Assembly (NCBI GenBank): GCA_963555825.3
Contig: CAUVXB020000001.1
Location: forward strand, 1,248,001 to 1,312,000
Direction: 5' to 3'
DNA: 64,000 nt
From: Alphaproteobacteria bacterium
Lineage (GTDB): Bacteria; Pseudomonadota; Alphaproteobacteria; JAAXGF01
The notes beneath the pieces are model-generated. The model searched no databases and had not been told where the DNA came from. It was given only the letters and a program-made list of their open reading frames with translations. Shown here piece after piece: positions 1-51,666 of this stretch. The position numbers were made by a program, and so were the translations under genes. Numbering within the stretch: position 1 is the stretch's first letter; the number at the start of each line of letters is the position of its first letter.

Positions 1-60
1 GCAAGCCTGGGCGATGAATCTGATGGTGATCAACGTCTCGACCCGCAAGTATGCCCGCGG
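1..60 (+). pseudogene. IS256-like transposase internal fragment (window edge)
   Basis: Frame reads QAWAMNLMVINVSTRKYAR, resembling the 'xSTR' region of alphaproteobacterial IS256 transposases; very short. Confidence 0.4.
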
Positions 61-189
61 GAGCTATTGTCAAAAGTTGACGGGGCGGTAAAAAGTTGTT
101 GGCCGATGGCGTGCTTGTACAGGTCTTTGCGGTTCGGTGAAGAATATTTGCCTGTCTCCGCGTTGCTGGTGGATAAAACCTGATATTAC

Positions 190-1311
190 CTACTGTCCCG
201 ATTCCGAAGTTCGCATGATTTTCGCCTGCTGTTCAGCGATTTCGATTGTTCGGAGGCAGAAGCGCTGGATGGCGCCGAGGATGTCATCGGCGGATTTGGT
301 CCATTTGAAGGGTTTGGGGTTCTGGTTTGTCGTGTCGATGTAGTCGAGGATGGTGCGCTCCAACTCCTTGGTGGAGCGATGGACGCCGCGCCTGATCTGC
401 TTGTCGGTCAGCAGCCCGAACCAGCGCTCGACCTGGTTCAGCCAGGAGGCGCTGGTGGGTGTGAAATGGGCCTGCCAGCGCGGCCGTTTGGCGAACCAGT
501 CGCGGATCGCCTTGGTCTTGTGGGTCCCGTAGTTGTCCATGACGATGTGGATGTCGAGATCAGCAGGGACGTTCGCCTCGACGAGGTCGAGGAATTTGCG
601 GAACTCTCGGGCCCGATGGCGCGGGAAACATTTGCCGATGATCTCTCCCGTGGCGATGTCGAGGGCCGCGAAGAGAGAGGTCGTGCCGTGGCGCTTGTAG
701 TCGTGGCTGCGCCGCTCCGCCTGCCCGGGGCGCATCGGCAAGAGGGGCTGGGAACGGTCCAGGGCCTGGATCTGGCTCTTTTCGTCGACACAGAGAACCA
801 GGGCACGATCCGGCGGCGCCAAATACAGACCGACGATGTCGCGGACCTTCTCCACGAAGAAGGGATCGCTCGACAGCTTGAAGGTCTCCGAGCGATGCGG
901 CTGCAAGCCGAAGGCCCGCCAGATGCGATGAATGGTCGAGGGCGCGTGGCCGCTCGCCCGCGCCATCGAGCGAAGGCTCCAATGGGTCGCGTCCGGCGGC
1001 GTCTCTTCCAGCGTCAGCCGGACCGCTTCCGCGATGGCGTCATCGCCGATTTGACGCGGCGCGCCGGGGCGGGGTTCGTCGTACAGACCGTCGAGGCCCT
1101 CCGCCGCATAGCGGCGACGCCACTTGCCCACGGTGTCCGCGCTCGCCTCGAGACGAACGGCGATCTCCTTGTTCTCCAACCCTTCCGCCGCCGCCAAGAC
1201 GATCCGAGCCCGCCGCGCAAGCCCCTGCGACGTCTTGCGACGACGAGACAGCGCCTCCAATTCGGCGCGCTCGTCATCGCTCAAAGAGATCGTCACCGCC
1301 ACTCTCGCCAT
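190..1311 (-). CDS. IS630-family transposase
   Basis: N-terminal [21 protein letters not shown] and [13 protein letters not shown] motifs. Confidence 0.95.
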
Positions 1312-1371
1312 CAATCGCGCCTCCTAAAAACAAATAGAGACATAATCATATCAATTTATCGATCAGGACAC
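193..1371 (-). mobile_element. IS630-family IS, complete
   Basis: Imperfect IRs CTGTCCCGAT / GTGTCCTGAT, each flanked by TA (191-192, 1372-1373); single transposase ORF. Confidence 0.9.
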
Positions 1372-1500
1372 TAGGAGCAAGTTCCCGCACGCAAGCCAGT
1401 CCTCACTTGATCGCCGGTAGAACTTCCCAGCGCGCTCGGCGAGACCGACCAGGGCGGCGGCGCTATTGCAGCGGTCGTTGGGCGGAGCTTTACTTAAAAC

Positions 1501-1764
1501 GTAACTGCCCAGGTAGCCGATGGCCGAGCGGCTGGATAGGACGGACGGGCAGATTTTGTAGGTTTGATGGACTGAATGCCTAGGTTTTGATTGACAAGCA
1601 GGGGGTGATGCGATTCAAGAATCCAATGAATCGTGAAGCCCTTGCCCTCTTGTCGAAAGACGAACTGATCGATTTGGTGCTGTCTCTGGCGGCACGGCTC
1701 GACGAACTCGAGCGCCGGCTCGGCCTGAACAGCACCAACAGCGGCAAGCCGCCGTCCAGCGATG
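1501..1764 (+). pseudogene. IS66-family (DUF6444-type) left end and truncated transposase N-terminus (ATG 1626)
   Basis: GTAAC terminus at 1501; coiled coil followed by LNSTNSGKPPSSDG; cut by IS6 at 1765. Confidence 0.75.
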
Positions 1765-2570
1765 GATGCTGTCAACTTAACGAAGGCAGGTCGCAGTTGA
1801 ACGTCTGAACTGAGCGGCTCAAGCAGCAGCGGTCACGGTCCGCCACGTGTTCATCGCGTCACCGCGGAATTGGCTCATTGTCTTGCGAGTGATCAGATGA
1901 CGTTGGACATTGAAGGTGTTGTAGATGGCGGCGTGGGTGGAGAGAAACCTTTGCGCCGATCCTGATGACTTGAAGCCCTGCATCCTGCGTTCTCGTTGTC
2001 GAACCGGCAGGTGCGAATTCTCCGCCCGATTGTTGCTCCGTCCGCCGGTAACGTGTTTCCCCGTCATGTTGAGATCACGCAATGCTGCCCCGTAAGATGG
2101 CAGTTTATCGGTCACCACCTTATTCGGCGCATACCCCTGCTTCTTGAGCAGTTTGCGCATCAGCTTGAGTGCTGCTTTCTTGTTCCTCCGGGACTGAACC
2201 AGGATATCCAGCACCTCACCCTCGCTGTCCACCGCCCGCCATAGATACATCCGTTTTCCGTTGATGGAGGAAAACACCTCATCAAGGTGCCACCGGTCGT
2301 CTGGTCGAGGGCGTGATTGTCTCAGTTTTCGGGCATAGGCCTGCCCAAACTTTAAAGCCCAGCGCCGTATCGTCTCGTAAGAAACATCGACACCACGTTC
2401 AGCGAGCAGATCCTCCACATCGCGGTAACTGAGCGGAAACCGGAAACACAGCCAGACGGCGCGCTGGATTATCTCTGCAGGAAACCGATGTCGGCGGTAG
2501 CTGATCTTGTTCATAACAGGAAGCTACTCGCCACCCGCAGCTGACACCAGCCAGTTACCGTGACAGCACC
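1765..2570 (-). mobile_element. IS6-family IS (copy of 56019-56824)
   Basis: 806 bp, GGTGCTGTCA IRs; the end at 1765 has a G>A change (GATGCTGTCA); no target duplication. Confidence 0.95.
1819..2514 (-). CDS. IS6-family transposase
   Basis: YRRHRFP, WHLDEVF, LWRAVD, VTDK and NNRAENSH motifs. Confidence 0.95.
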   Translation of the reverse strand: MNKISYRRHRFPAEIIQRAVWLCFRFPLSYRDVEDLLAERGVDVSYETIRRWALKFGQAYARKLRQSRPRPDDRWHLDEVFSSINGKRMYLWRAVDSEGEVLDILVQSRRNKKAALKLMRKLLKKQGYAPNKVVTDKLPSYGAALRDLNMTGKHVTGGRSNNRAENSHLPVRQRERRMQGFKSSGSAQRFLSTHAAIYNTFNVQRHLITRKTMSQFRGDAMNTWRTVTAAA

Positions 2571-3342
2571 GTCGAAGGAGTTCTGCCGGCGCATCGGCTG
2601 GTTCAAGCCCGACGGCGGCCTCAAGGACATGATGGCCAGGGTCGCCATGCTGGCCATGCACAGGGACGGCCTGATCGCCCTGCCGGCGCCGCAGGGACGG
2701 CAGAACCGGCCCGGGCCGATCGTCTTCGGGCCGGACACCGAAGCGCCGCTGTTCCCGGCCCCGACGACCCTCGACGAGGTCCGTCCGCTCGACCTGCGCC
2801 CCGTCGTGCGCGGCACCCGGGAGAGCAAGCTCTGGAACGAGTTCGTCGCCCGCTACCACTATCTCGGATACAAGACCCTGGTCGGCGCCCAGATGCGCTA
2901 CGCCGTCCACGACCGCGACGGCTGGCCGCTCGCCATGCTCGGCTTCTCCACCGCCGCGTGGAAGCTCGCCCCGCGCGACAACTTCATCGGATGGACACGG
3001 CAGAAGCGCGAGAAGAACCTTCCCTTCGTGGTCGACAACCCGAGATTCCTGATCCTGCCCTGGATCAATATCCCCAACCTGGGTTCGCACATCCTGGCCA
3101 TCATCCGCCGGCGCCTGCCCGATGACTGGACCGAGCGCTACAACACCACGCCCGTGCTCATCGAGACCTTCGTCGAGACCCCGCGCTACACCGGCGCCGT
3201 TTACAGGGCCTCCGGCTGGACCCGCGTCGGGACCACCCAGGGGCGCGGGCGCTACGACCGGGACAGGCAGTCCGACAAGCCTAAAAAGGATGTCTGGCTC
3301 CGGCCCCTGCGACGGGATTGGAAACGCACCCTCAATCGCTAA
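2571..3342 (+). pseudogene. DUF4338 (DruA-related) domain protein, N-terminally truncated by IS6
   Basis: WNEFVARYHYLGY, RDNFIGW, NPRFLILPW, ETFVE and YRASGW motifs; followed by IS66-like end GAACGAACGCTTAC (to 3401). Confidence 0.8.
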
Positions 3343-3401
3343 AATCGGCCGGGGCGAATGGAAACGCCCGCGCTGATTCCACGGCCTGAACGAACGCTTA
3401 C

Positions 3402-3631
3402 CCTTGGCGAAGGTGCCGTCCACAAGATTAGTCCCATCCCCGTCCTGTGATGGTCCATGTATACAGCATTGTGGCAAGCCGGATCGGAGCTGCCGGATAT
3501 AAGGTGATGCGATCACTCGCACGAAACACGGAACTCATCGCAAGACCCGCCCATAGCACATGAGTTGGAGGAAAAGGAGAAATGACAATACGGCGGCTAA
3601 TTAAACCGCCTTGACAGCAAACGCCTCATAT
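3402..3631 (+). ncRNA. IS1111/IS110-type right non-coding end, putative bridge/seek RNA remnant
   Basis: Internal CCACAAG and CCTT match the flanking istA target; internal ATATAAG matches the element end; TTGACA at 3611 near the terminus. Confidence 0.6.
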
Positions 3632-4285
3632 AAGGAGACCATCGGCGAGCGTCTCGAGCGGGATCGTCAAGTTCTCTTGCCATTGCCGCCTGCTCCCTAT
3701 GATGCCTGCGATAAGCGCCCTGGACGGGCGAGTTCGCTGTCGCTGGTGCGTTACCGCAGCAACGACTATTCCGTGCCCGTGGCCTACGGCCACCGTGAGG
3801 TGCTCATCCGGGGCTACGTCGATGAGGTGGTGATCAGCTGCGGGGCCGAGGTGATCGCCCGGCACCGCCGGTCCTACGACAGCGAGGACCTGATCTTCGA
3901 CCCGCTGCATTACCTGCCCTTGATCGAGCAGAAGATCGGCGCCCTCGACCAGGCCGCGCCATTGGCGGGCTGGGACCTGCCCGAGGCCTTCATCACTCTG
4001 CGGCGGCTCCTCGAAGCTCGTATGGGCAAGGCAGGCAAGCGCGAGTACGTCCAGGTGCTCCGTCTACTGGAGACCTTCCGGCTCGAGGAGGTCGAGGGTG
4101 CGGTCGGCGACGCCCTGCGGCTCGGCGCAATCGGCTTTGATGCGGTGAAGCACCTGGTACTGTGCCGCATCGAGCGGCGGCCGCCCAGGCTCAACCTCGA
4201 CGTCTATCCGTATCTGCCGCGCGCCCGGGTCGCGATGACGTCCGCCAAGTCGTACATGAGCCTGCTGTCGGGGCTCGGCGCATGA
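3632..4285 (+). pseudogene. istA: IS21 transposase IstA, 3' part only
   Basis: Identical to the C-terminal part of 17520-19019. Confidence 0.9.
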
Positions 4286-5046
4286 CCGACACACCGCAAG
4301 TGCTGCTCGCCCACCACCTCAAGACGCTGAAGCTGCCGACCTTCCTGCGCGAGTACGACAAGATCGCCCGGCAGTGCGCCTCGGAAGGCGTCGATCACGT
4401 CCGCTACCTGTTGAGACTCGCCGAGCTCGAGCTGATCGACCGCGAGCGCCGCATGGTCGAGCGGCGCATCAAGGCGGCGCGCTTCCCCGTGGTCAAGAGC
4501 CTCGACAGCTTCGACTTCAAGGTCATCCCCTCGCTCAACAAGGCGCTGGTCCTGGAGCTGGCCCGCTGCGAGTACATCGAGCGCCGCGAGAACCTCATCG
4601 CGCTCGGCAACAGTGGGACCGGCAAGACCCACATCGCCCTCGGTCTCGGCCTGGCGGCCTGCCAGAAGGGCCTCTCGGTCGGCTTCATCACCGCCGCCGC
4701 GCTGGTCCACGAACTCATCGAGGCCCGCGATGACAAGCAGCTGCTGAGGTTCCAGAAGAAGCTCGCCACCTACAAGCTTCTGATCGTCGACGAACTCGGC
4801 TTCGTGCCGCTGTCGAAGACCGGCGCCGAGCTGTTGTTCGAGGTGTTCAGCCAACGCTACGAGCGGGGCTCGACCCTGGTCACCACCAATCTGCCCTTCG
4901 ACGAATGGACCGAGGTGTTCGGCTCCGAGCGCCTCACCGGCGCGCTCCTCGATCGCCTCACCCACCACGTCAACATCCTCGAGATGAACGGTGACAGCTA
5001 CAGGCTCAACCAGAGCCGCAGGCGTCAAACCCCGACTGCTAACTGA
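4282..5046 (+). CDS. istB: IS21 helper ATPase IstB
   Basis: Walker A GNSGTGKT, LLIVDELG, LLDRLTHH; ATGA overlap with istA. Confidence 0.95.
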   Translation: MTDTPQVLLAHHLKTLKLPTFLREYDKIARQCASEGVDHVRYLLRLAELELIDRERRMVERRIKAARFPVVKSLDSFDFKVIPSLNKALVLELARCEYIERRENLIALGNSGTGKTHIALGLGLAACQKGLSVGFITAAALVHELIEARDDKQLLRFQKKLATYKLLIVDELGFVPLSKTGAELLFEVFSQRYERGSTLVTTNLPFDEWTEVFGSERLTGALLDRLTHHVNILEMNGDSYRLNQSRRRQTPTAN

Positions 5047-5199
5047 ACCGACCACCCAGCCCACGCTTGACCCCGTGGGCCCACAGGTCCCTCCCGCGCG
5101 CGCCGCCGCGTCAGCCTGTTGAGGGCACGCCGCGTCGCGCGCGGGGCCCTCCCGTGGACTACGGGGACAAGCCCGCAGCCGCCAAGCGGTCCCTTCTTA

Positions 5200-6375
5200 T
5201 ACCAGTGAGCGCCTGAATTGACTCTCGGGATATTCATTGATGGCGGATGATGGCGGATTGTGATTCTATGGTCTCCCACCAGATGTGGGGGATGTCATGG
5301 GATCAGCACTCAAGATACGGGATGATTTGACGCCTTTGGAGCTTCGGCGCTGGGCTCGCGTGGAATCGTACGGTCGAGCGGCGGCGCGGGCCTATGGGAT
5401 CGCGAATGCTTTGGAGGAGATGCCCCGGGCTGATGCCGCGCGGCTTGCGGGGATGGATCGCCAAACGCTTCGCGACGCGGTTGTTCGTTACAATGCAAAG
5501 GGATTGGAGGGGCTTCACGACCGTCCAAAGGGCTACTCGCCGCGGCGGCTGACGGCAGACGAGGAAGCGGCGCTGGCGGCGGTCATCATCGCCGGGCCGG
5601 AGCCTGAGCGCGACGGGGTTTGCGCCTGGACCCGGGCCGATCTGTGCCGCTGGCTGGAGGAGCGCTTCGCCAAGACCTACCACCCCTCGAGCATGACCCG
5701 GGTTCTACGGCGGATGGGATTTTCCCGCCAGAAGGCGCGCCCGAGCCACCCGCGAAGGGACGCCGAAGCGCAGGAGCGCTTCAAAAAAGGGGGCTTCGCG
5801 ACATCCTGAAGGCGACCGCCGCGGCGCATCCCGACAAGCGCCTACAGCTGTGGTTTCAGGATGAAGCGCGCGTCGGCAACAAGGGCCGGGTGTGTCACCG
5901 GTGGTGGCGCAGGGGCGAGCGTGCCCCCGGGACGCGTCAAATCGGCTACCAGTGGGCCTACATCTTCTCCGCCGTGCGCCCGGACACCGGCGACGACGTC
6001 ACCCTGGTGATGCCGAGCGTCAACGCCAAGGTCATGGACCTGTTTCTCGCACACTTCGCCGATACCCTGGACCAGGATGCGCACGCCGTCATGATGTGCG
6101 ACGGCGCCGGTTGGCACGACGAGCGCGCCCTCACCGTCCCCGACAACGTCACCTTGGCGCTGTTGCCGCCTTACAGTCCCGAACTCAACCCCGTCGAGCG
6201 GGTTTGGCTCTACCTACGCGAACGCTTCCTATCGCTCCGCGTCCTCGACGACACCGAGGCCATCATCGACGCCTGTTGCCAAGCATGGATCGACCTCATC
6301 GCAGAACCGGATCGTATGCGAACCCTCTGCGCCTATCCATGGATCATGAAGGTGATTTCATAGGCTCACTGGTAT
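5200..6375 (+). mobile_element. IS630-family IS inserted in the IS21 right end
   Basis: IRs TACCAGTGAGC / GCTCACTGGTAT with TA duplication; removing it restores CTTCTTACACCG of the intact IS21. Confidence 0.92.
5297..6363 (+). CDS. IS630 transposase, two ORFs joined by a probable programmed -1 frameshift
   Basis: HTH ORF to 5809 plus FQDEAR...DGAGWH...PELNPVE ORF; slippery AAAAAAGGGGG at 5783-5793. Confidence 0.9.
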
Positions 6376-16872: not shown

Positions 16873-17116
16873 GGAGTACCAGCTTTCGATGGGTTCGGAC
16901 GATGATAATGGTAGGGCGTCGCCGGGCCGCCGTCAGGCTGAGACTGGGCGCCACAATTTGCGCGCCAAGCCCCTGTGACTGGACGACGCCCAGGCGAAGG
17001 CGCGCGCCCTGACCCGAATGAGGTGTTGATAGCAGTCTACGGAAGCTCGTTGGGCGAGTCTAATGGCGCTGTCAGAGGGCACATGGCGCATTGGCCTCGA
17101 ATGTCCGGTTATGGCT

Positions 17117-17401
17117 CAGACTGTGTAAGAACGTTTGCTGCGTGATCTGTACGGCGCGTCTTTGGCTTCGATGATCCGTCGCGGCGGGTTTTCTGGGATT
17201 ATGGATTTTCGCCGCTGGTGGGGGCTTATCGGCCGGCTGGCGCCGGTTTGTTGGGTAGTTTGACCGGATTGGGCTGTAGTTTGCGGCGCAGAGGCGCCTA
17301 TGCCGCCCTCATTGCCGCGATCAGCGGGTCGATGCCCATGATGTTCATGACGCGCTTGAGATTGTAGGCCAGCACGTGCAGGGCCATCTCGGTCCTCACC
17401 C
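17117..17401 (-). pseudogene. IS1182-family transposase 3' end and terminus, truncated by IS21
   Basis: VRTEMALHVLAYNLKRVMNI (stop at 17298); end TTCTTACACAGTCTG. Confidence 0.8.
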
Positions 17402-17519
17402 TGAGAACGGCAGAGCAATAATCCCCCACTGAAGCGGCCGGTCGATCCGGCTGCGGCGGACCAAAATGGGACCGCGTATAGCCTTCTGTCAGGGTTGCTC
17501 TGACTGGAAGGCGGGGGGG

Positions 17520-19019
17520 ATGTATCGGGTGGAGTTGTACGCACGGGTTCGGCGGGCGTGTCATGTCGAGGGGATGAGCACCCGCGAGGCCTCGCGGGTG
17601 TTTGGTGTAGACCGCAAGACGGTCCGTAAGATGCTGTCGTTCTCGGTGCCGCCAGGGTATCGCCGAAGCGCGCCGCCGAGGCGGCCAAAGCTGGGTCCGT
17701 TCACGGGAATCATCGATCGGATCTTGGAAGACGATCGGACCAGCCACCGCAAGCAACGGCACACTGCGAAGCGCATCTTCGACCGCCTCCGGGACGAGTA
17801 CGGTTTCACGGGCGGCTACACCATCGTGAAGGACTACGTTCGTGAGCAGGGGCTTCGGTCGCGTGAGGTGTTCGTGCCACTCTCCCATTCCCCCGGTCAC
17901 GCCCAGGCGGACTTCGGCGAAGCGATGGCGGTGATCGGCGGCGCGTTACGGAAGATCCACTTCCTTGCCTTCGACCTTCCCCACAGTGATGGTTGCTTTG
18001 TTGCGGCCTATCCGGCGGAGACGACCGAAGCATTCTGCGATGGCCACAACGCGGCGTTTGCCTTCTTCGGCGGCGTCCCCCGATCCATCCTGTACGACAA
18101 CACCAAGCTGGCGGTTGCCCGGATCCTGGGCGATGGGAAGCGGCAGCGAACGCGCGTCTTCACGGAGCTTCAGTCCCACTATCTGTTCGAGGACAGGTTC
18201 GGCCGGCCGGGCAAGGGCAACGACAAGGGCAAGGTCGAGGGACTGGTCGGCTTCATCCGGCGGAACTTCCTGGTCCCCGTCCCGCGTGCCGAGAGCTTCG
18301 CGGCCCTCAACGATGCTCTCGCCGAACAGTGCCGCCGGCGCCAGGCGGCGCGGCTGCGGGGCCACAAGGAGACCATCGGCGAGCGTCTCGAGCGGGATCG
18401 TCAAGTTCTCTTGCCATTGCCGCCTGCTCCCTATGATGCCTGCGATAAGCGCCCTGGACGGGCGAGTTCGCTGTCGCTGGTGCGTTACCGCAGCAACGAC
18501 TATTCCGTGCCCGTGGCCTACGGCCACCGTGAGGTGCTCATCCGGGGCTACGTCGATGAGGTGGTGATCAGCTGCGGGGCCGAGGTGATCGCCCGGCACC
18601 GCCGGTCCTACGACAGCGAGGACCTGATCTTCGACCCGCTGCATTACCTGCCCTTGATCGAGCAGAAGATCGGCGCCCTCGACCAGGCCGCGCCATTGGC
18701 GGGCTGGGACCTGCCCGAGGCCTTCATCACTCTGCGGCGGCTCCTCGAAGCTCGTATGGGCAAGGCAGGCAAGCGCGAGTACGTCCAGGTGCTCCGTCTA
18801 CTGGAGACCTTCCGGCTCGAGGAGGTCGAGGGTGCGGTCGGCGACGCCCTGCGGCTCGGCGCAATCGGCTTTGATGCGGTGAAGCACCTGGTACTGTGCC
18901 GCATCGAGCGGCGGCCGCCCAGGCTCAACCTCGACGTCTATCCGTATCTGCCGCGCGCCCGGGTCGCGATGACGTCCGCCAAGTCGTACATGAGCCTGCT
19001 GTCGGGGCTCGGCGCATGA
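17520..19019 (+). CDS. istA: IS21 transposase IstA
   Basis: AQADFG, LYDNTK and KGKVEGLV DDE motifs. Confidence 0.95.
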   Translation: MYRVELYARVRRACHVEGMSTREASRVFGVDRKTVRKMLSFSVPPGYRRSAPPRRPKLGPFTGIIDRILEDDRTSHRKQRHTAKRIFDRLRDEYGFTGGYTIVKDYVREQGLRSREVFVPLSHSPGHAQADFGEAMAVIGGALRKIHFLAFDLPHSDGCFVAAYPAETTEAFCDGHNAAFAFFGGVPRSILYDNTKLAVARILGDGKRQRTRVFTELQSHYLFEDRFGRPGKGNDKGKVEGLVGFIRRNFLVPVPRAESFAALNDALAEQCRRRQAARLRGHKETIGERLERDRQVLLPLPPAPYDACDKRPGRASSLSLVRYRSNDYSVPVAYGHREVLIRGYVDEVVISCGAEVIARHRRSYDSEDLIFDPLHYLPLIEQKIGALDQAAPLAGWDLPEAFITLRRLLEARMGKAGKREYVQVLRLLETFRLEEVEGAVGDALRLGAIGFDAVKHLVLCRIERRPPRLNLDVYPYLPRARVAMTSAKSYMSLLSGLGA

Positions 19020-19780
19020 CCGACACACCGCAAGTGCTGCTCGCCCACCACCTCAAGACGCTGAAGCTGCCGACCTTCCTGCGCGAGTACGACAAGATCG
19101 CCCGGCAGTGCGCCTCGGAAGGCGTCGATCACGTCCGCTACCTGTTGAGACTCGCCGAGCTCGAGCTGATCGACCGCGAGCGCCGCATGGTCGAGCGGCG
19201 CATCAAGGCGGCGCGCTTCCCCGTGGTCAAGAGCCTCGACAGCTTCGACTTCAAGGTCATCCCCTCGCTCAACAAGGCGCTGGTCCTGGAGCTGGCCCGC
19301 TGCGAGTACATCGAGCGCCGCGAGAACCTCATCGCGCTCGGCAACAGTGGGACCGGCAAGACCCACATCGCCCTCGGTCTCGGCCTGGCGGCCTGCCAGA
19401 AGGGCCTCTCGGTCGGCTTCATCACCGCCGCCGCGCTGGTCCACGAACTCATCGAGGCCCGCGATGACAAGCAGCTGCTGAGGTTCCAGAAGAAGCTCGC
19501 CACCTACAAGCTTCTGATCGTCGACGAACTCGGCTTCGTGCCGCTGTCGAAGACCGGCGCCGAGCTGTTGTTCGAGGTGTTCAGCCAACGCTACGAGCGG
19601 GGCTCGACCCTGGTCACCACCAATCTGCCCTTCGACGAATGGACCGAGGTGTTCGGCTCCGAGCGCCTCACCGGCGCGCTCCTCGATCGCCTCACCCACC
19701 ACGTCAACATCCTCGAGATGAACGGTGACAGCTACAGGCTCAACCAGAGCCGCAGGCGTCAAACCCCGACTGCTAACTGA
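19016..19780 (+). CDS. istB: IS21 helper ATPase IstB
   Basis: Identical to 4282-5046. Confidence 0.95.
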   Translation: MTDTPQVLLAHHLKTLKLPTFLREYDKIARQCASEGVDHVRYLLRLAELELIDRERRMVERRIKAARFPVVKSLDSFDFKVIPSLNKALVLELARCEYIERRENLIALGNSGTGKTHIALGLGLAACQKGLSVGFITAAALVHELIEARDDKQLLRFQKKLATYKLLIVDELGFVPLSKTGAELLFEVFSQRYERGSTLVTTNLPFDEWTEVFGSERLTGALLDRLTHHVNILEMNGDSYRLNQSRRRQTPTAN

Positions 19781-19971
19781 ACCGACCACCCAGCCCACGC
19801 TTGACCCCGTGGGCCCACAGGTCCCTCCCGCGCGCGCCGCCGCGTCAGCCTGTTGAGGGCACGCCGCGTCGCGCGCGGGGCCCTCCCGTGGACTACGGGG
19901 ACAAGCCCGCAGCCGCCAAGCGGTCCCTTCTTACACCGCCGAGGTGGTCCCTTTTTGCTCCGCCATTGACA

Positions 19972-21219
19972 ATCCTGTTGCTGTTGTTGAGCCTGTGGGG
20001 ATGTGGGCAAGGCGCGAGCCTTGTCCATCATATCTACAGGTTGACCGGCCCCGTAGGCCTCGGCCGGCGTTTGACCGTCGAGGGACGAATGGGGCCGCTC
20101 GGTGTTGTAGAAGCCGATCCACTCGCCGATGACCCGTTCGGCGTGGAAGCCGTCGGTGAGCTCGTGTAGGTAGACCGCCTCATACTTGAGAGACCGCCAC
20201 AGGCGCTCGATGAAGATGTTGTCCATGCAGCGGCCCCGACCGTCCATGGAGATGCGGATGCTCGCGTTCTTGAGCACGCCGGTGAAGTCGAGGCTGGTGA
20301 ACTGGCTGCCCTGATCCGTATTGAATATCTCCGGCTGGCCGTAGCGGGCCAGCGCGTCGCCCAAGGCCTCGGCGCAGAATCCAGCGTCCATGGTGTTCGA
20401 CAGCCGCCAGGATAAAACGTGGCGCGTCGCCCAGTCCATGATCGCTACCAGGTACAGAAAGCCACGCTGGACGGGGATATAGGTGATGTCGGCGCACCAG
20501 ACCCGATTGGGCTGGTCGATAGCCATCCCTTTGAGAAGATAAGGATAAATCCGGTGCATGGGATGCGGCACGCTGGTTCTCGGCGCCTGATAGATCGCCT
20601 CCAGGCCTATCAATCGCATCAACCTGCGAACCCGGTGACGGCCGACGCAAACGCCGTCCCGCCGCAACTGGCGGACCATCTGGCGGCTGCCGTAGAACGG
20701 GTACTTCATGAACAACTCGTCGATCCGACGCATCAGCGCCAGACTCGAAGGGCTCTCCCCCCTGGGCGCATAATAGAACGAGGACCGGCCGATCGAAAGC
20801 AGGCGGCATTGACGGCTCAAGCTCAGCTCGGGGGCGTCGCGTGTGATCATCGCCTTGCGCTCCCCCCGGCTCATCGCTTGAGCCCTCTGGCTAAAAAATC
20901 CCGTTCCACCGTCAGCTCGCCGATCTTGGCGTGAAGGTCGCGGACCTCGGATTCATGATCCCGGCAAGCGCGGTTGGCGCCGTTCGAAAACACTTCGCCC
21001 AGACCGTCCACCGCCTGGCGCTTCCAGGCGCTCACCTGGTTCGGATGCACCTTGTGCTTGGCCGCGATCTGCTGGATCGTCTTGTCGCCCCGCAGCGCTT
21101 CCAGCGCCACCCGGGCCTTGAATTCCGCCGTAAACCGGCGTCGATTCGTCATCTCGTATTCCTCCGTTATCCGGTGGAATACACCTTAGCTCCCTGTCCG
21201 ATTTTCTGGGACCACCTCA
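19972..21219 (-). mobile_element. IS3-family IS, right end removed by IS21 (orfA 20871-21152, orfB 19972-20874)
   Basis: Near-identical to 45498-46834; WCADITY, NTDQGSQF, IERLWRSLKYE. Confidence 0.93.
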
Positions 21220-21402
21220 GGGGATCGTCGCCAACGGTAAGAAGATCCGCCGTCTGATGCGCCAGCACGACCTGCAGCCCAAGCGTCGCAGGCGTTTCAT
21301 CGCCACAACCGACAGCGATCACGATAGTCCGATCTTCTCCAACCGCGCCAAGGACGTTACGGCCGACAGGCCGAACCAGCTCTGGGTCGCAGACATCACC
21401 TT
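21220..21402 (+). pseudogene. Internal fragment of a different IS3-family OrfB
   Basis: [12 protein letters not shown]...TTDSDH...[10 protein letters not shown]. Confidence 0.8.
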
Positions 21403-49096: not shown

Positions 49097-51666
49097 TGTC
49101 AATGGCGGAGCAAAAAGGGACCACCTCGGCGGTGTAAGAAGGGACCGCTTGGCGGCTGCGGGCTTGTCCCCGTAGTCCACGGGAGGGCCCCGCGCGCGAC
49201 GCGGCGTGCCCTCAACAGGCTGACGCGGCGGCGCGCGCGGGAGGGACCTGTGGGCCCACGGGGTCAAGCGTGGGCTGGGTGGTCGGTTCAGTTAGCAGTC
49301 GGGGTTTGACGCCTGCGGCTCTGGTTGAGCCTGTAGCTGTCACCGTTCATCTCGAGGATGTTGACGTGGTGGGTGAGGCGATCGAGGAGCGCGCCGGTGA
49401 GGCGCTCGGAGCCGAACACCTCGGTCCATTCGTCGAAGGGCAGATTGGTGGTGACCAGGGTCGAGCCCCGCTCGTAGCGTTGGCTGAACACCTCGAACAA
49501 CAGCTCGGCGCCGGTCTTCGACAGCGGCACGAAGCCGAGTTCGTCGACGATCAGAAGCTTGTAGGTGGCGAGCTTCTTCTGGAACCTCAGCAGCTGCTTG
49601 TCATCGCGGGCCTCGATGAGTTCGTGGACCAGCGCGGCGGCGGTGATGAAGCCGACCGAGAGGCCCTTCTGGCAGGCCGCCAGGCCGAGACCGAGGGCGA
49701 TGTGGGTCTTGCCGGTCCCACTGTTGCCGAGCGCGATGAGGTTCTCGCGGCGCTCGATGTACTCGCAGCGGGCCAGCTCCAGGACCAGCGCCTTGTTGAG
49801 CGAGGGGATGACCTTGAAGTCGAAGCTGTCGAGGCTCTTGACCACGGGGAAGCGCGCCGCCTTGATGCGCCGCTCGACCATGCGGCGCTCGCGGTCGATC
49901 AGCTCGAGCTCGGCGAGTCTCAACAGGTAGCGGACGTGATCGACGCCTTCCGAGGCGCACTGCCGGGCGATCTTGTCGTACTCGCGCAGGAAGGTCGGCA
50001 GCTTCAGCGTCTTGAGGTGGTGGGCGAGCAGCACTTGCGGTGTGTCGGTCATGCGCCGAGCCCCGACAGCAGGCTCATGTACGACTTGGCGGACGTCATC
50101 GCGACCCGGGCGCGCGGCAGATACGGATAGACGTCGAGGTTGAGCCTGGGCGGCCGCCGCTCGATGCGGCACAGTACCAGGTGCTTCACCGCATCAAAGC
50201 CGATTGCGCCGAGCCGCAGGGCGTCGCCGACCGCACCCTCGACCTCCTCGAGCCGGAAGGTCTCCAGTAGACGGAGCACCTGGACGTACTCGCGCTTGCC
50301 TGCCTTGCCCATACGAGCTTCGAGGAGCCGCCGCAGAGTGATGAAGGCCTCGGGCAGGTCCCAGCCCGCCAATGGCGCGGCCTGGTCGAGGGCGCCGATC
50401 TTCTGCTCGATCAAGGGCAGGTAATGCAGCGGGTCGAAGATCAGGTCCTCGCTGTCGTAGGACCGGCGGTGCCGGGCGATCACCTCGGCCCCGCAGCTGA
50501 TCACCACCTCATCGACGTAGCCCCGGATGAGCACCTCACGGTGGCCGTAGGCCACGGGCACGGAATAGTCGTTGCTGCGGTAACGCACCAGCGACAGCGA
50601 ACTCGCCCGTCCAGGGCGCTTATCGCAGGCATCATAGGGAGCAGGCGGCAATGGCAAGAGAACTTGACGATCCCGCTCGAGACGCTCGCCGATGGTCTCC
50701 TTGTGGCCCCGCAGCCGCGCCGCCTGGCGCCGGCGGCACTGTTCGGCGAGAGCATCGTTGAGGGCCGCGAAGCTCTCGGCACGCGGGACGGGGACCAGGA
50801 AGTTCCGCCGGATGAAGCCGACCAGTCCCTCGACCTTGCCCTTGTCGTTGCCCTTGCCCGGCCGGCCGAACCTGTCCTCGAACAGATAGTGGGACTGAAG
50901 CTCCGTGAAGACGCGCGTTCGCTGCCGCTTCCCATCGCCCAGGATCCGGGCAACCGCCAGCTTGGTGTTGTCGTACAGGATGGATCGGGGGACGCCGCCG
51001 AAGAAGGCAAACGCCGCGTTGTGGCCATCGCAGAATGCTTCGGTCGTCTCCGCCGGATAGGCCGCAACAAAGCAACCATCACTGTGGGGAAGGTCGAAGG
51101 CAAGGAAGTGGATCTTCCGTAACGCGCCGCCGATCACCGCCATCGCTTCGCCGAAGTCCGCCTGGGCGTGACCGGGGGAATGGGAGAGTGGCACGAACAC
51201 CTCACGCGACCGAAGCCCCTGCTCACGAACGTAGTCCTTCACGATGGTGTAGCCGCCCGTGAAACCGTACTCGTCCCGGAGGCGGTCGAAGATGCGCTTC
51301 GCAGTGTGCCGTTGCTTGCGGTGGCTGGTCCGATCGTCTTCCAAGATCCGATCGATGATTCCCGTGAACGGACCCAGCTTTGGCCGCCTCGGCGGCGCGC
51401 TTCGGCGATACCCTGGCGGCACCGAGAACGACAGCATCTTACGGACCGTCTTGCGGTCTACACCAAACACCCGCGAGGCCTCGCGGGTGCTCATCCCCTC
51501 GACATGACACGCCCGCCGAACCCGTGCGTACAACTCCACCCGATACATCCCCCCCGCCTTCCAGTCAGAGCAACCCTGACAGAAGGCTATACGCGGTCCC
51601 ATTTTGGTCCGCCGCAGCCGGATCGACCGGCCGCTTCAGTGGGGGATTATTGCTCTGCCGTTCTCA
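49097..51666 (-). mobile_element. IS21-family IS, complete (istA 50049-51548, istB 49288-50052)
   Basis: Inverted copy of 17402-19971; same length and same translated proteins. Confidence 0.95.

What the first reader, a model, noticed from the sequence alone, without database searches (positions are those of the whole stretch)
3402..3640. Orphan bridge/seek RNA whose guides spell the IS21 istA site it occupies
Seen: istA resumes at 3632 (AAGGAGACC), while intact copies read GGCCACAAGGAG (18360-18371). The 230-nt non-coding stretch has CCTT (3402-3405, reverse complement of AAGG), a small GGC/GCC hairpin, then CCACAAG (3420-3426, left target plus core). A second loop ends GG-ATATAAG (3497-3503), matching its own terminus CATATAAG; TTGACA lies at 3611. 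Established: IS110/IS1111 non-coding ends encode RNAs with target- and donor-binding loops. Inference: an IS1111-like element programmed against another transposon's transposase gene; two empty targets remain in this window.
Basis: partly seen in the sequence, partly recalled or inferred. Interest (0 to 1): 0.7.

Follow-up and report, generated by a model that had tools for sequence, protein, structure and literature searches.

The report
Broken RNA-guided IS inside IS21
The stretch is the cut-off tail of an RNA-guided jumping gene (IS110/IS1111 type) that landed in the transposase gene of another jumping gene, IS21, and its guide-RNA gene still spells that landing site; it is a clear natural example of a known mechanism, not a new one.

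Summary
Confirmed. Window 3402-3634 is the last 233 nt of a 1524-bp IS110-family element with IS1111-like layout. It has a 377-aa DEDD transposase, followed by a ~190-nt structured bridge/seek RNA, an 8-bp subterminal inverted repeat and a TTGACA near its right end. The genome holds 11 full-length copies, 8 of them 100% identical to one another, plus several fragments. Seven full copies and four remnants, this one included, sit at the same point of IS21 istA (CCACAAG|GAGAC, after codon 301 of 517). Five others lie elsewhere, four of them (the full copies) at CA(C/T)AAG|GAGAC. Full copies carry GTCTCCTT, the complement of AAGGAGAC, then a hairpin, then GTCCACAAG, which is the order published for IS1111 seekRNAs. 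In up to 59 distinct relatives (36 and 39 usable pairs) the same two positions change together with the flanks (0 of 10,000 permutations reach the observed match). A covariance model finds one hit in the window (E 2.6e-35). The window copy is a fossil: an IS66-family element cut it inside the right-target guide. The transposase gene, the left end and the first ~46 nt of the RNA are missing. Seventy-four empty istA targets remain in the genome, two of them in this window. Verdict: new member of a known kind. A sister clade sits in IS3-family orfA.

The parts
1767..2570 (-). IS6-family element (transposase ORF 1819-2514). It truncates the neighbouring IS66-family element on its left.
   Evidence: PF13610 DDE_Tnp_IS240, E 1.2e-38. 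Repeat boundaries 1767-2570 come from a genome BLAST.
2571..3401 (+). The last 831 bp of a ~3.7-kb IS66-family element. It carries the 3' part of a DruA/DUF4338-domain ORF (to 3342) and the element's right terminal inverted repeat (3376-3401). Its end abuts and truncates the IS1111-like element.
   Evidence: 99.9% identical to L098 3493-4323. PF14236 DruA, E 3.8e-40. The full copy has an 887-aa PF03050 DDE_Tnp_IS66 ORF plus a 329-aa DruA ORF. All 22 ends listed in the genome stop at the same base.
3402..3634 (+). 3' remnant (element positions 1292-1524) of a 1524-bp IS110-family element with IS1111-like layout. This is the finding.
   Evidence: Homologous to the 3' end of 11 full copies. Identical to them over 3402-3552 and 3609-3634, divergent in between.
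3402..3405 (+). Last 4 nt (CCTT) of the right-target guide. Full copies read GTCTCCTT, the complement of the top strand AAGGAGAC.
   Evidence: Guide/flank covariation in relatives.
3406..3417 (+). Hairpin that closes the target-binding loop (GGCG AAGG TGCC).
   Evidence: Helix 4 of the model. The three outer of its four pairs hold in 60 to 64 of the 64 distinct relatives; the innermost is broken in 27 (87.5% of cells paired overall).
3418..3426 (+). Left-target guide GTCCACAAG. It has the same sense as the left flank plus core of the target; istA reads GGCCACAAG.
   Evidence: The guide and the left flank share a mean of 4.47 of 7 variable positions, against 2.16 in mismatched pairings.
3430..3439 (+). 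3' strands of the two stems that enclose the target-binding loop. Their 5' partners are lost in this copy.
   Evidence: The cmsearch alignment marks the 5' partners as non-canonical. Helices 2 and 3 are 96-98% paired in relatives.
3447..3541 (+). Complete donor-binding domain, a three-way junction. The right-donor guide region is at 3465-3472 (AGCATTGT), a hairpin at 3473-3494, the left-donor guide at 3495-3503 (ATATAAG matches the right end), a second hairpin at 3508-3521, and the closing stem at 3447-3459 with 3527-3541.
   Evidence: AGCAT is complementary to the left end ATGCT in 12 of 12 elements that carry it, and AGGAT to ATCCT in 7 of 10.
3545..3551 (+). 3' strand of the outermost stem, marking the likely 3' limit of the RNA. 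Identity with the full copies ends at 3552.
   Evidence: Helix 1 is 91.7% paired, with compensatory changes at 6 of 7 pairs. The first difference from full copies is at 3553.
3553..3608 (+). Spacer that is specific to this copy. It includes a hairpin at 3592-3610; 3609-3610 already lie in the stretch shared with the full copies.
   Evidence: No other copy of this spacer turned up in the genome BLAST.
3611..3634 (+). Right end of the element: TTGACA (3611-3616), the subterminal inverted repeat GCCTCATA (3623-3630) and the terminal TAAG. The TTGACA would serve as the -35 of a promoter formed at the circle junction (inferred).
   Evidence: TTGAC is conserved at the same distance from the end in relatives. 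A junction promoter is reported for ISEc11 (PMC11187229, passage seen).
3635..5203 (+). Right part of the invaded IS21-family element: istA codons 302-517 (to 4285) and istB (4162-5046).
   Evidence: PF22483 and PF01695. The repeat boundary 5203 occurs in 63 copies.
17402..19971 (+). Intact IS21-family copy. istA is at 17466-19019 (517 aa), with the empty target CACAAGGAGAC at 18363-18373, between the rve core and the C-terminal domain.
50695..50705 (-). Second empty istA target in the window.
   Evidence: C1:1298695, minus strand.

Best explanation
Window 3402-3634 is the right-hand 233 nt of an IS110-family insertion sequence with IS1111-like organisation. The order along the element is: left end, a 377-aa DEDD transposase, a bridge/seek RNA of about 190 nt, a spacer and the right end.

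The RNA folds into two guide-bearing domains inside one outer stem.
- In the first, an internal loop carries GTCTCCTT on its 5' side. This pairs with the top strand of the right half of the target, AAGGAGAC. On its 3' side the loop carries GTCCACAAG, which pairs with the bottom strand of the left half, CCACAAG.
- In the second, a three-way junction carries AGCAT, which pairs with the element's left end ATGCT, and ATATAAG, which matches its right end.

The transposase-RNA complex would bring a circular copy of the element to CCACAAG|GAGAC and recombine at the shared AA(G) core without a target duplication.

That 12-bp word lies in istA of an IS21-family element that has more than 80 copies in this genome, so most insertions end up there and split IstA after residue 301.

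The window copy was later cut inside its right-target guide by the insertion of an IS66-family element, which was itself cut by an IS6. It lacks the transposase gene, the left end and the first ~46 nt of the RNA, so it is a fossil.

Shown: the homology, the copy contexts, the guide/flank covariation and the stem covariation.
Inferred: that the RNA is made and bound by the transposase, the circle intermediate, the junction promoter, and that IstA is inactivated.
For: 1. Full copies. There are 11 full-length copies of 1524 bp, 8 of them 100% identical. The ORF has PF01548 and PF02371 and scores 204 bits on NF033542 (cut-off 140). The motif G-x2-P-x4-SG is visible in the translation.

2. Insertion sites. 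Seven full copies, one degenerate copy, one left-part copy, a 7-nt remnant and the window copy are at the same istA position. Four full copies elsewhere are flanked by CA(C/T)AAG | GAGAC. AAG is present at both junctions and there is no other duplication.

3. Guide order. The guide complementary to the top strand lies 5' of the one matching the bottom strand, and the two matches overlap. This is as described for IS1111 seekRNAs (PMC11187229, section 9 read).

4. Relatives. Eighty loci were taken from genome contigs (49-89% aa identity) and 4 from plasmid records. The 83 loci whose transposase ends were known were scanned for the conserved guide motif; 6 lacked it, leaving 77, of which 59 were distinct. 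Rows without a recognisable left or right end were dropped.
- For 36 unique left-guide/left-flank pairs, mean identity is 4.47 of 7 variable positions, against 2.16 in 1238 mismatched pairings. Of 10,000 permutations, 0 reach the observed sum.
- For 39 unique right-guide/right-flank pairs, the mean longest complementary run is 6.3 nt, against 3.7. Again 0 of 10,000 permutations reach it.

5. Donor guide. AGCAT goes with the left end ATGCT in 12 of 12 elements that carry it, and AGGAT with ATCCT in 7 of 10.

6. Structure.
- On 11 MAFFT-aligned sequences, 87.1% of cells are paired, against 35-40% when partners are slid, and 10 pairs show compensatory change.
- On the model-fitted alignment of 64 distinct sequences, 87.9% are paired against 37-42%, 39 of 46 pairs are compensatory against 14-21, and the covariation score is 0.384 against 0.05-0.08.
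- G-U pairs are frequent, which fits the transposase strand as the RNA strand.

7. The model hits 80 of 85 sources directly 3' of the transposase gene, and the window once (E 2.6e-35), with the 5' stems broken there.

8. Truncation. All 22 ends of the IS66-family element listed in the genome stop at the same base, and in the window that base abuts CCTTGG.
Against: - No expression or biochemical data exist for this element. The RNA-library contigs that hold the stretch cannot show transcription.
- The alignment behind one search was fitted to the model and leans towards its structure.
- The sequences in the permutation tests are related, so shared descent inflates the signal. Some automatically called right ends are wrong (for example L023 and L040), and these were left in.
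- The transposase is 377 aa (IS1111 type: 330-350 aa per PMC11187229, section 6) and about 24% identical to IS4321 and IS5075. The subterminal repeat is 8 bp, where 11-13 is usual.
- The core part of the right-donor guide (TGT) does not complement AAG.
- The seven istA copies need not be seven events. Composite IS21::IS copies might have been moved in trans by IS21, and SNPs in the IS21 arms could not decide this.
Confidence: 0.9

Rival explanations
1. The enrichment in istA reflects spread of a composite IS21::IS1111-like unit, moved in trans by IstA/IstB from intact IS21 copies. On this view one or a few RNA-guided hits were then multiplied, rather than the element landing in istA repeatedly.
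For: The invaded IS21 copies have complete arms and lie at different genomic places. IS21 is highly active here: 76 near-full left arms. The seven full inserts in istA are 99.87-100% identical.
Against: At least three distinguishable insert variants occupy the same istA position: the main type, the window copy with its own spacer, and the 97.5% left-part copy at C2:1618223. Four further copies lie at the same motif outside IS21. No SNP in the IS21 arm marks the occupied copies: all 9 carry the majority haplotype, which is uninformative rather than supportive.
Confidence: 0.3
2. The orphan is still functional. Read through from the co-oriented upstream ORF, it would give an RNA with an intact donor-binding domain but no target loop. 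Such an RNA could act in trans on the full copies, for example in donor-only excision or as a competitor for the transposase.
For: The donor domain 3447-3541 is complete and identical to that of the full copies. A 2026 preprint reports that donor-only recognition is enough for IS621 excision (10.64898/2026.08.31.748434; abstract and highlights seen). A contig specific to the orphan's spacer (3523-3638) is present in two RNA libraries.
Against: No promoter is evident. The upstream IS66-family element has itself lost its 5' part to an IS6. RNA-library contigs cannot show transcription, and none bridges 3401/3402. The outer stem and both stems of the first domain have lost their 5' strands. Eleven intact genes already supply the full RNA.
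Confidence: 0.05
3. The 233 nt are a self-contained miniature element, or a chance resemblance, and the 'guides' are coincidental words.
For: Short words such as CCACAAG are expected about 0.03 times in 230 nt on two strands (own estimate), so one match alone would be weak evidence.
Against: The left boundary is made by the precise end of another IS, not by an end of the stretch's own. No left-end sequence is present. The stretch aligns end to end with the 3' part of 1524-bp elements. The guide positions covary with the flanks across relatives.
Confidence: 0.01

Closest known systems
IS1111-group elements with seekRNA (ISEc11, ISKpn4, ISPst6, ISPa11; Siddiquee et al. 2024, PMC11187229)
   Same: - The long non-coding region lies 3' of a DEDD transposase gene.
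- The element has subterminal inverted repeats.
- The RNA carries a match to the top strand 5' of a match to the bottom strand, and the two overlap at the insertion point.
- Insertion is site-specific and makes no duplication.
- A TTGACA lies near the right end, where a junction promoter would form.
   Different: - The transposase is 377 aa, not 330-350.
- It is about 24% identical to the IS4321 and IS5075 proteins.
- The inverted repeat is 8 bp.
- The target is a word inside IS21 istA rather than a REP, an attC site or a short chromosomal word.
- Nothing has been tested experimentally.
IS621 bridge RNA (IS110 group; Durrant et al. 2024, PMC11208160)
   Same: One RNA with two separately programmable guide-bearing loops, one for the target and one for the element's own ends. 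Recombination takes place at a short shared core.
   Different: - The RNA lies at the 3' end of the element, not the 5' end.
- The order of the guides is reversed.
- The donor guides sit in a three-way junction rather than a simple internal loop. Durrant et al. note this for many IS1111 orthologues (passage seen).
- The core here is AA(G), not CT.
[quoted passage not shown]
   Same: A member of this family whose specific target lies inside another transposable element.
   Different: Those elements hit the terminal repeats of a Tn3-family transposon. This one hits the coding sequence of an IS21 transposase gene, and a sister clade hits IS3-family orfA.

Membership tests
IS110 family (DEDD RNA-guided transposases) | Transposase with an N-terminal DEDD/RuvC-like domain and a C-terminal Transposase_20 domain | tested here: met
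   In full copies: PF01548, E 1.1e-9, and PF02371, E 1.6e-16. NF033542 scores 204.4 bits against a cut-off of 140. The window remnant itself has no transposase gene.
IS110 family (DEDD RNA-guided transposases) | Conserved G-x2-P-x4-S/T-G motif in the C-terminal domain (PMC11187229, section 6) | tested here: met
   The translation contains G-I-T-P-S-A-Y-D-S-G.
IS110 family (DEDD RNA-guided transposases) | Sequence-specific insertion without a target-site duplication beyond a short core | tested here: met
   All 12 junction pairs shown share only AAG on both sides. The target consensus is CA(C/T)AAG|GAGAC.
IS1111 group | The long non-coding region lies downstream of the transposase gene | tested here: met
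   The stop codon is at element 1204-1206 and the element ends at 1524, against 72 nt upstream of the start.
IS1111 group | Subterminal inverted repeats (7-17 bp per PMC11208160; usually 11-13 bp per PMC11187229) | tested here: met
   TATGAGGC at the left and GCCTCATA at the right, 8 bp, each 4 nt from the end. This is short for the group.
IS1111 group | Terminal extensions of 7 (or 6) bp on the left and 3 bp on the right beyond the repeats | tested here: inconclusive
   With AAG counted once, the extensions sum to 8 bp, which can be split 4+4 or 5+3. The true split needs the circle junction or the cleavage sites.
IS1111 group | seekRNA with the top-strand complement 5' of the bottom-strand match | tested here: met
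   GTCTCCTT lies 5' of GTCCACAAG. The same order holds in relatives.
IS1111 group | Transposase of 330-350 aa that clusters with IS1111-type proteins | tested here: not met
   The length is 377 aa. tblastn identity to the IS4321 and IS5075 proteins is 23-24% over 81% of the length. No tree with ISfinder references was built, so the placement itself is untested.
Bridge RNA / seekRNA | Structured RNA whose loop positions covary with the target flanks and with the element's ends | tested here: met
Bridge RNA / seekRNA | The RNA is expressed, binds the transposase and is needed for transposition | not testable with these tools
   Only assembled contigs of RNA libraries were available.
Bridge RNA / seekRNA | The RNA gene is complete in the window copy | tested here: not met
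   Element positions ~1263-1291 plus the 5' strands of three stems are replaced by the end of the IS66-family element.
Rfam families | Match to a curated RNA family | tested here: not met
   No relevant hit at E <= 1 on window 2000-6000 or on a full copy.

The most novel reading that the evidence does not exclude
This branch of RNA-guided IS110-family elements may live largely as parasites of other insertion sequences. A few base changes in the guides would then move a lineage from one host element to another.

- The nearest relatives (76-89% aa identity) carry the guides GTCCGCTT and GTCC(N)AAAG and sit in a REP-like palindrome at AAAG|CGGACAT.
- This genome's element differs by about two bases in each guide and sits in IS21 istA.
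- A sister clade, seen in at least 12 distinct loci from several alphaproteobacterial genera, sits in the codons for E-N-D-F of IS3-family orfA.

Such elements would gain many safe landing sites, and as a by-product they would disable the host cell's most active transposons.

A further unexplained point is that the DNA coding for the right-target guide looks like a breakage hot spot. Three independent truncation points fall within 11 nt of it.
Probability: 0.3. Interest if true: 0.6.

Novelty: new member of a known kind. Interest (0 to 1): 0.45.

Why it matters
The finding gives a clean natural case in which the programmable logic of bridge/seek RNAs can be read straight from a genome. The guide, the target, 11 active-looking copies, 74 still-empty targets and several damaged copies all lie side by side.

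The target is the coding sequence of another element's transposase, and a sister clade targets IS3 orfA. This suggests that RNA-guided insertion sequences can exploit, and incidentally silence, other transposons in genomes rich in insertion sequences.

The close relatives differ in only a few guide positions and have other targets, so they form a ready-made series of natural retargeting.

None of this changes the known mechanism.

Tried and rejected
- **Rfam**: no family matches either the remnant or a full copy.
- **Single-sequence MFE folds** disagreed between relatives. RNAalifold on a plain MAFFT alignment recovered only two conserved hairpins. I therefore drew a structure by hand from the main sequence, tested it and turned it into a covariance model.
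- **RNA evidence**:
  - Four metatranscriptome runs, kept as contigs and coded X1, X2, X5 and X10, hold the stretch.
  - Contigs covering 3402-3552 run on upstream into full-copy sequence.
  - A 116-nt contig specific to the orphan's spacer is present in X1 and X2.
  - No contig bridges 3401/3402 with 31 nt on both sides.
  - Contigs cannot show transcription, ends or level, so nothing is claimed from them.
- **Composite transposition versus repeated insertion:** SNPs in the 967-nt left arm of IS21 across 76 copies were uninformative.
- **Is C2:1618223-1619490 the orphan's missing left part?** That piece covers element 1-1297 and overlaps the orphan by 6 nt. I judged this unlikely. It is 97.5% identical to the main type and has indels just upstream of the guide. 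The orphan is 100% identical to the main type over its first 151 nt, and the piece is joined to istA, not to the IS66-family element.
- **Miniature-element and chance readings:** rejected.
- **Literature.** Three searches found no description of an IS110/IS1111 element targeting istA or IS3 orfA:
  - 'IS110 family' + 'istA';
  - 'bridge RNA' / IS110 / 'other insertion sequences' / target;
  - IS1111 / 'IS3 family' / nested and related terms.

- **ISfinder** could not be queried, so I cannot say whether the element already has a name.

Full report
**What is at the coordinates**

- CCTT at 3402-3405
- a GGC..GCC hairpin at 3406-3417
- CCACAAG at 3420-3426
- ATATAAG at 3497-3503
- TTGACA at 3611-3616
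- the terminus CATATAAG at 3627-3634
- AAGGAGACC from 3632

An intact IS21-family copy lies at 17402-19971, with istA at 17466-19019 (517 aa). It reads GGCCACAAGGAG at 18360-18371. A second empty target lies at 50695 on the minus strand.

The whole left end of the window is a mosaic of insertion sequences:
- an IS6-family element at 1767-2570
- the last 831 bp of an IS66-family element at 2571-3401
- the stretch in question at 3402-3634
- the right part of IS21 (rest of istA, then istB) to 5203

**It is the tail of a 1524-bp element**

A search of the window's own genome finds 12 further copies of 3402-3631. With one of them as query, the genome holds 11 full-length copies of 1524 bp. Eight are 100% identical to the query copy and three are 99.87-99.93% identical. 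There are also several fragments.

The full element encodes a 377-aa protein with the DEDD_Tnp_IS110 and Transposase_20 domains. It scores 204 bits on NCBIfam NF033542, 'IS110 family RNA-guided transposase', against a cut-off of 140. A 318-nt non-coding region follows the stop codon. The ends carry an 8-bp subterminal inverted repeat, TATGAGGC and GCCTCATA.

The window copy corresponds to element positions 1292-1524. It is identical to the full copies over 3402-3552 and 3609-3634 and differs in the spacer between.

**Where the copies sit**

These copies are at exactly the same point of istA (...GGGGCCACAAG | element | GAGACCATCGG...), after codon 301, between the rve core and the C-terminal domain:
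- seven full copies
- one degenerate copy (C2:1500115-1501529)
- one left-part copy (C2:1618223-1619490)
- a 7-nt remnant (C1:1730309)
- the window copy

Four full copies lie elsewhere, flanked by CA(C/T)AAG | GAGAC:
- one in a serine-recombinase-like gene
- one at the edge of an IS5-like repeat
- one in a repeated 517-aa ORF
- one intergenic

. A 127-nt left-end fragment follows ...GGCTACAAG.

AAG stands at both junctions and nothing else is duplicated.

The 11-mer CACAAGGAGAC occurs 77 times unoccupied, 74 of them in the istA context. Among 76 near-full IS21 left arms, 64 run on into GAGACC, 9 run into the element, and 3 were partial matches that could not be classed.

**The RNA and its guides**

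In full copies the non-coding region reads ...CAT-GTCTCCTT-[GGCGAAGGTGCC]-GTCCACAAG-ATT.... GTCTCCTT is the complement of AAGGAGAC, and CCACAAG equals the left flank plus core.

The order is the one described for IS1111 seekRNAs: the top-strand complement lies 5' of the bottom-strand match, and the two overlap at the insertion point (PMC11187229; I read sections 6, 9 and 13 and further passages).

A second domain carries AGCAT, the complement of the left end ATGCT, and ATATAAG, which equals the right end.

**Test on relatives**

I fetched 80 loci encoding relatives of the transposase from genome contigs (49-89% identity) and four plasmid regions. The 83 loci whose transposase ends were known were scanned for the conserved guide motif. 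It was found in 77, and 59 of those were distinct. Rows without a recognisable left or right end were dropped before the counts below.

- **Left guide against left flank.** For 36 unique pairs, mean identity was 4.47 of 7 variable positions, against 2.16 in 1238 mismatched pairings.
- **Right guide against right flank.** For 39 unique pairs, the mean longest complementary run was 6.3 nt, against 3.7.
- **Permutations.** In both tests 0 of 10,000 permutations reached the observed sum.
- **Donor guide.** AGCAT goes with ATGCT in 12 of 12 elements that carry it, and AGGAT with ATCCT in 7 of 10.

The sequences are related, so these figures are not clean probabilities. Several automatically called right ends are wrong and count against the signal. 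Even so, many different guide/flank combinations agree.

**Structure**

A hand-drawn structure has an outer stem enclosing two domains. The first is an internal loop with a closing hairpin. The second is a three-way junction.

- On 11 MAFFT-aligned sequences, 87.1% of cells are paired, against 35-40% when the partners are slid. Ten pairs show compensatory change.
- The covariance model built from it hits 80 of 85 sources directly downstream of the transposase gene.
- On that model-fitted alignment of 64 distinct sequences, 87.9% of cells are paired against 37-42%. Compensatory change occurs at 39 of 46 pairs against 14-21. The covariation score is 0.384 against 0.05-0.08. This alignment leans towards the model.
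- In the window the model finds one hit, 3379-3558 (+), E 2.6e-35. Its first ~23 positions are forced onto foreign sequence, and the 5' strands of three stems are broken.
- The 3' strand of the outer stem ends at 3551. That is exactly where identity between the orphan and the full copies ends, which suggests an RNA of about 190 nt.

A donor site in a multi-loop is what Durrant et al. describe for many IS1111 orthologues (PMC11208160; passages seen).

**How the orphan arose**

Positions 3343-3401 are the right end of a ~3.7-kb IS66-family element. A full copy carries an 887-aa DDE_Tnp_IS66 ORF and a 329-aa DruA-domain ORF, 26-bp terminal repeats and 8-bp duplications.

All 22 of its ends listed in the genome stop at the same base. 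In the window that base abuts CCTTGG, so this element inserted inside the right-target guide. Its own left part was later removed by an IS6.

The orphan therefore lacks the transposase gene, the left end, the 5' ~46 nt of the RNA and any evident promoter. I read it as a fossil. A trans role for its intact donor domain is conceivable; compare donor-only excision in 10.64898/2026.08.31.748434 (abstract seen). It is unsupported here.

**Comparison with what is known**

The element works like an IS1111-type seekRNA or bridge-RNA element and is a member of the IS110 family.

Placement in the IS1111 group proper is open. The layout, the repeats and the guide order fit. The protein, however, is 377 aa and about 24% identical to the IS4321 and IS5075 proteins, and no tree was made.

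Targeting another mobile element is known for IS4321 and IS5075, which target the Tn21 terminal repeats; I saw this only as a reference title. My three literature searches found no IS110-family element reported in istA or in IS3 orfA.

**Wider pattern (lead, not proof)**

- The nearest relatives, 76-89% identical and from alphaproteobacterial metagenome bins, carry GTCCGCTT and GTCC(N)AAAG. They sit at AAAG|CGGACAT in a REP-like palindrome.
- A sister clade of at least 12 distinct loci has left guides ending in AAAAAG and sits at ...AAAAAG | element | AAATC(G/A)TT....
- In the Bradyrhizobium elkanii plasmid copy, the flanks translate to an IS3-family OrfA cut after ...ENDL and to the following OrfB.
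- 'Programmed against IS21' is too strong. The guides fit three non-IS21 sites as well or better (13-14 contiguous bp against 12).
- Composite IS21::element units might also spread through IS21's own transposition, and could not decide this.

**Verdict**

The stretch is a truncated copy of a new member of a known kind of RNA-guided insertion sequence. It is of moderate interest because its target is another element's transposase gene and because relatives show natural retargeting.

Noticed in passing
G000 C2:1492951-1492998 (L099 952-999); window 3401/3402; G000 C2:1619490: Three independent truncation points of this element fall within 11 nt of the DNA that codes for the right-target guide: element positions 1287/1288, 1291/1292 and 1297/1298. 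One of them bounds an exact 48-nt piece of the non-coding region that sits in frame inside a Kbl-like aminotransferase ORF (my reading of the translation; no family search was run). That ORF has CCACAAGGAG about 60 nt downstream. My rough scan-statistic estimate is p of about 0.01 for 3 of ~8 breakpoints. The guide-coding DNA may itself act as a half-site.
   Followed up: partly
G000 C2:1618223-1619600 (L097) and C2:1500057-1501529: In two damaged copies in istA the element's right part is missing. It is replaced by a duplicate of the istA sequence just upstream of the target, 85 nt in one copy and about 27 nt in the other. An intact target is therefore regenerated next to a truncated element. 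This looks like repair of a break at the right junction, templated on an empty IS21 copy.
   Followed up: partly
L011 (Bradyrhizobium elkanii plasmid NZ_CP126031.1) 3654-5259; also L012, L013, L032-L046: A sister clade of the same transposase/RNA family is inserted in IS3-family elements, at the codons for E-N-D-F/L near the end of orfA. The left guides end in AAAAAG and the right guides vary with the flank (TCGTT, TCATT, TCCCG).
   Followed up: partly
window 2571-3401; full copy at L098 ~620-4323 (G000 C1:1317621-1321322): This is an IS66-family element of ~3.7 kb with one 887-aa DDE_Tnp_IS66 ORF and a second ORF of 329 aa carrying the DruA (Druantia, DUF4338) domain. It has 26-bp terminal repeats, 8-bp duplications and about 12 copies. 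Two copies have cut IS1111-like elements. A DruA-domain gene as a fixed passenger of an IS is unusual.
   Followed up: partly
L031 2648-2758 and 2783-2967; L044 likewise: Two relatives carry two tandem target-loop modules in the 3' non-coding region, with different guide sequences. The covariance model hits both in L031. This may mean dual targeting, or a duplicated and decaying module.
   Followed up: no
window 1-6000 and 17100-21220; whole genome: The load of insertion sequences is extreme. There are about 80 IS21-family copies and about 60 copies of the 1.2-kb repeat at 190-1374, and elements are nested in one another throughout. The RNA-library runs that hold the stretch include ones labelled sponge metagenome.
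   Followed up: no
window 3592-3610 versus full copies (element ~1480-1499): The spacer differs between the orphan and the full copies, yet both keep a hairpin directly upstream of TTGACA, built from different stem sequences. It may be a terminator or insulator between the RNA and the right end.
   Followed up: no
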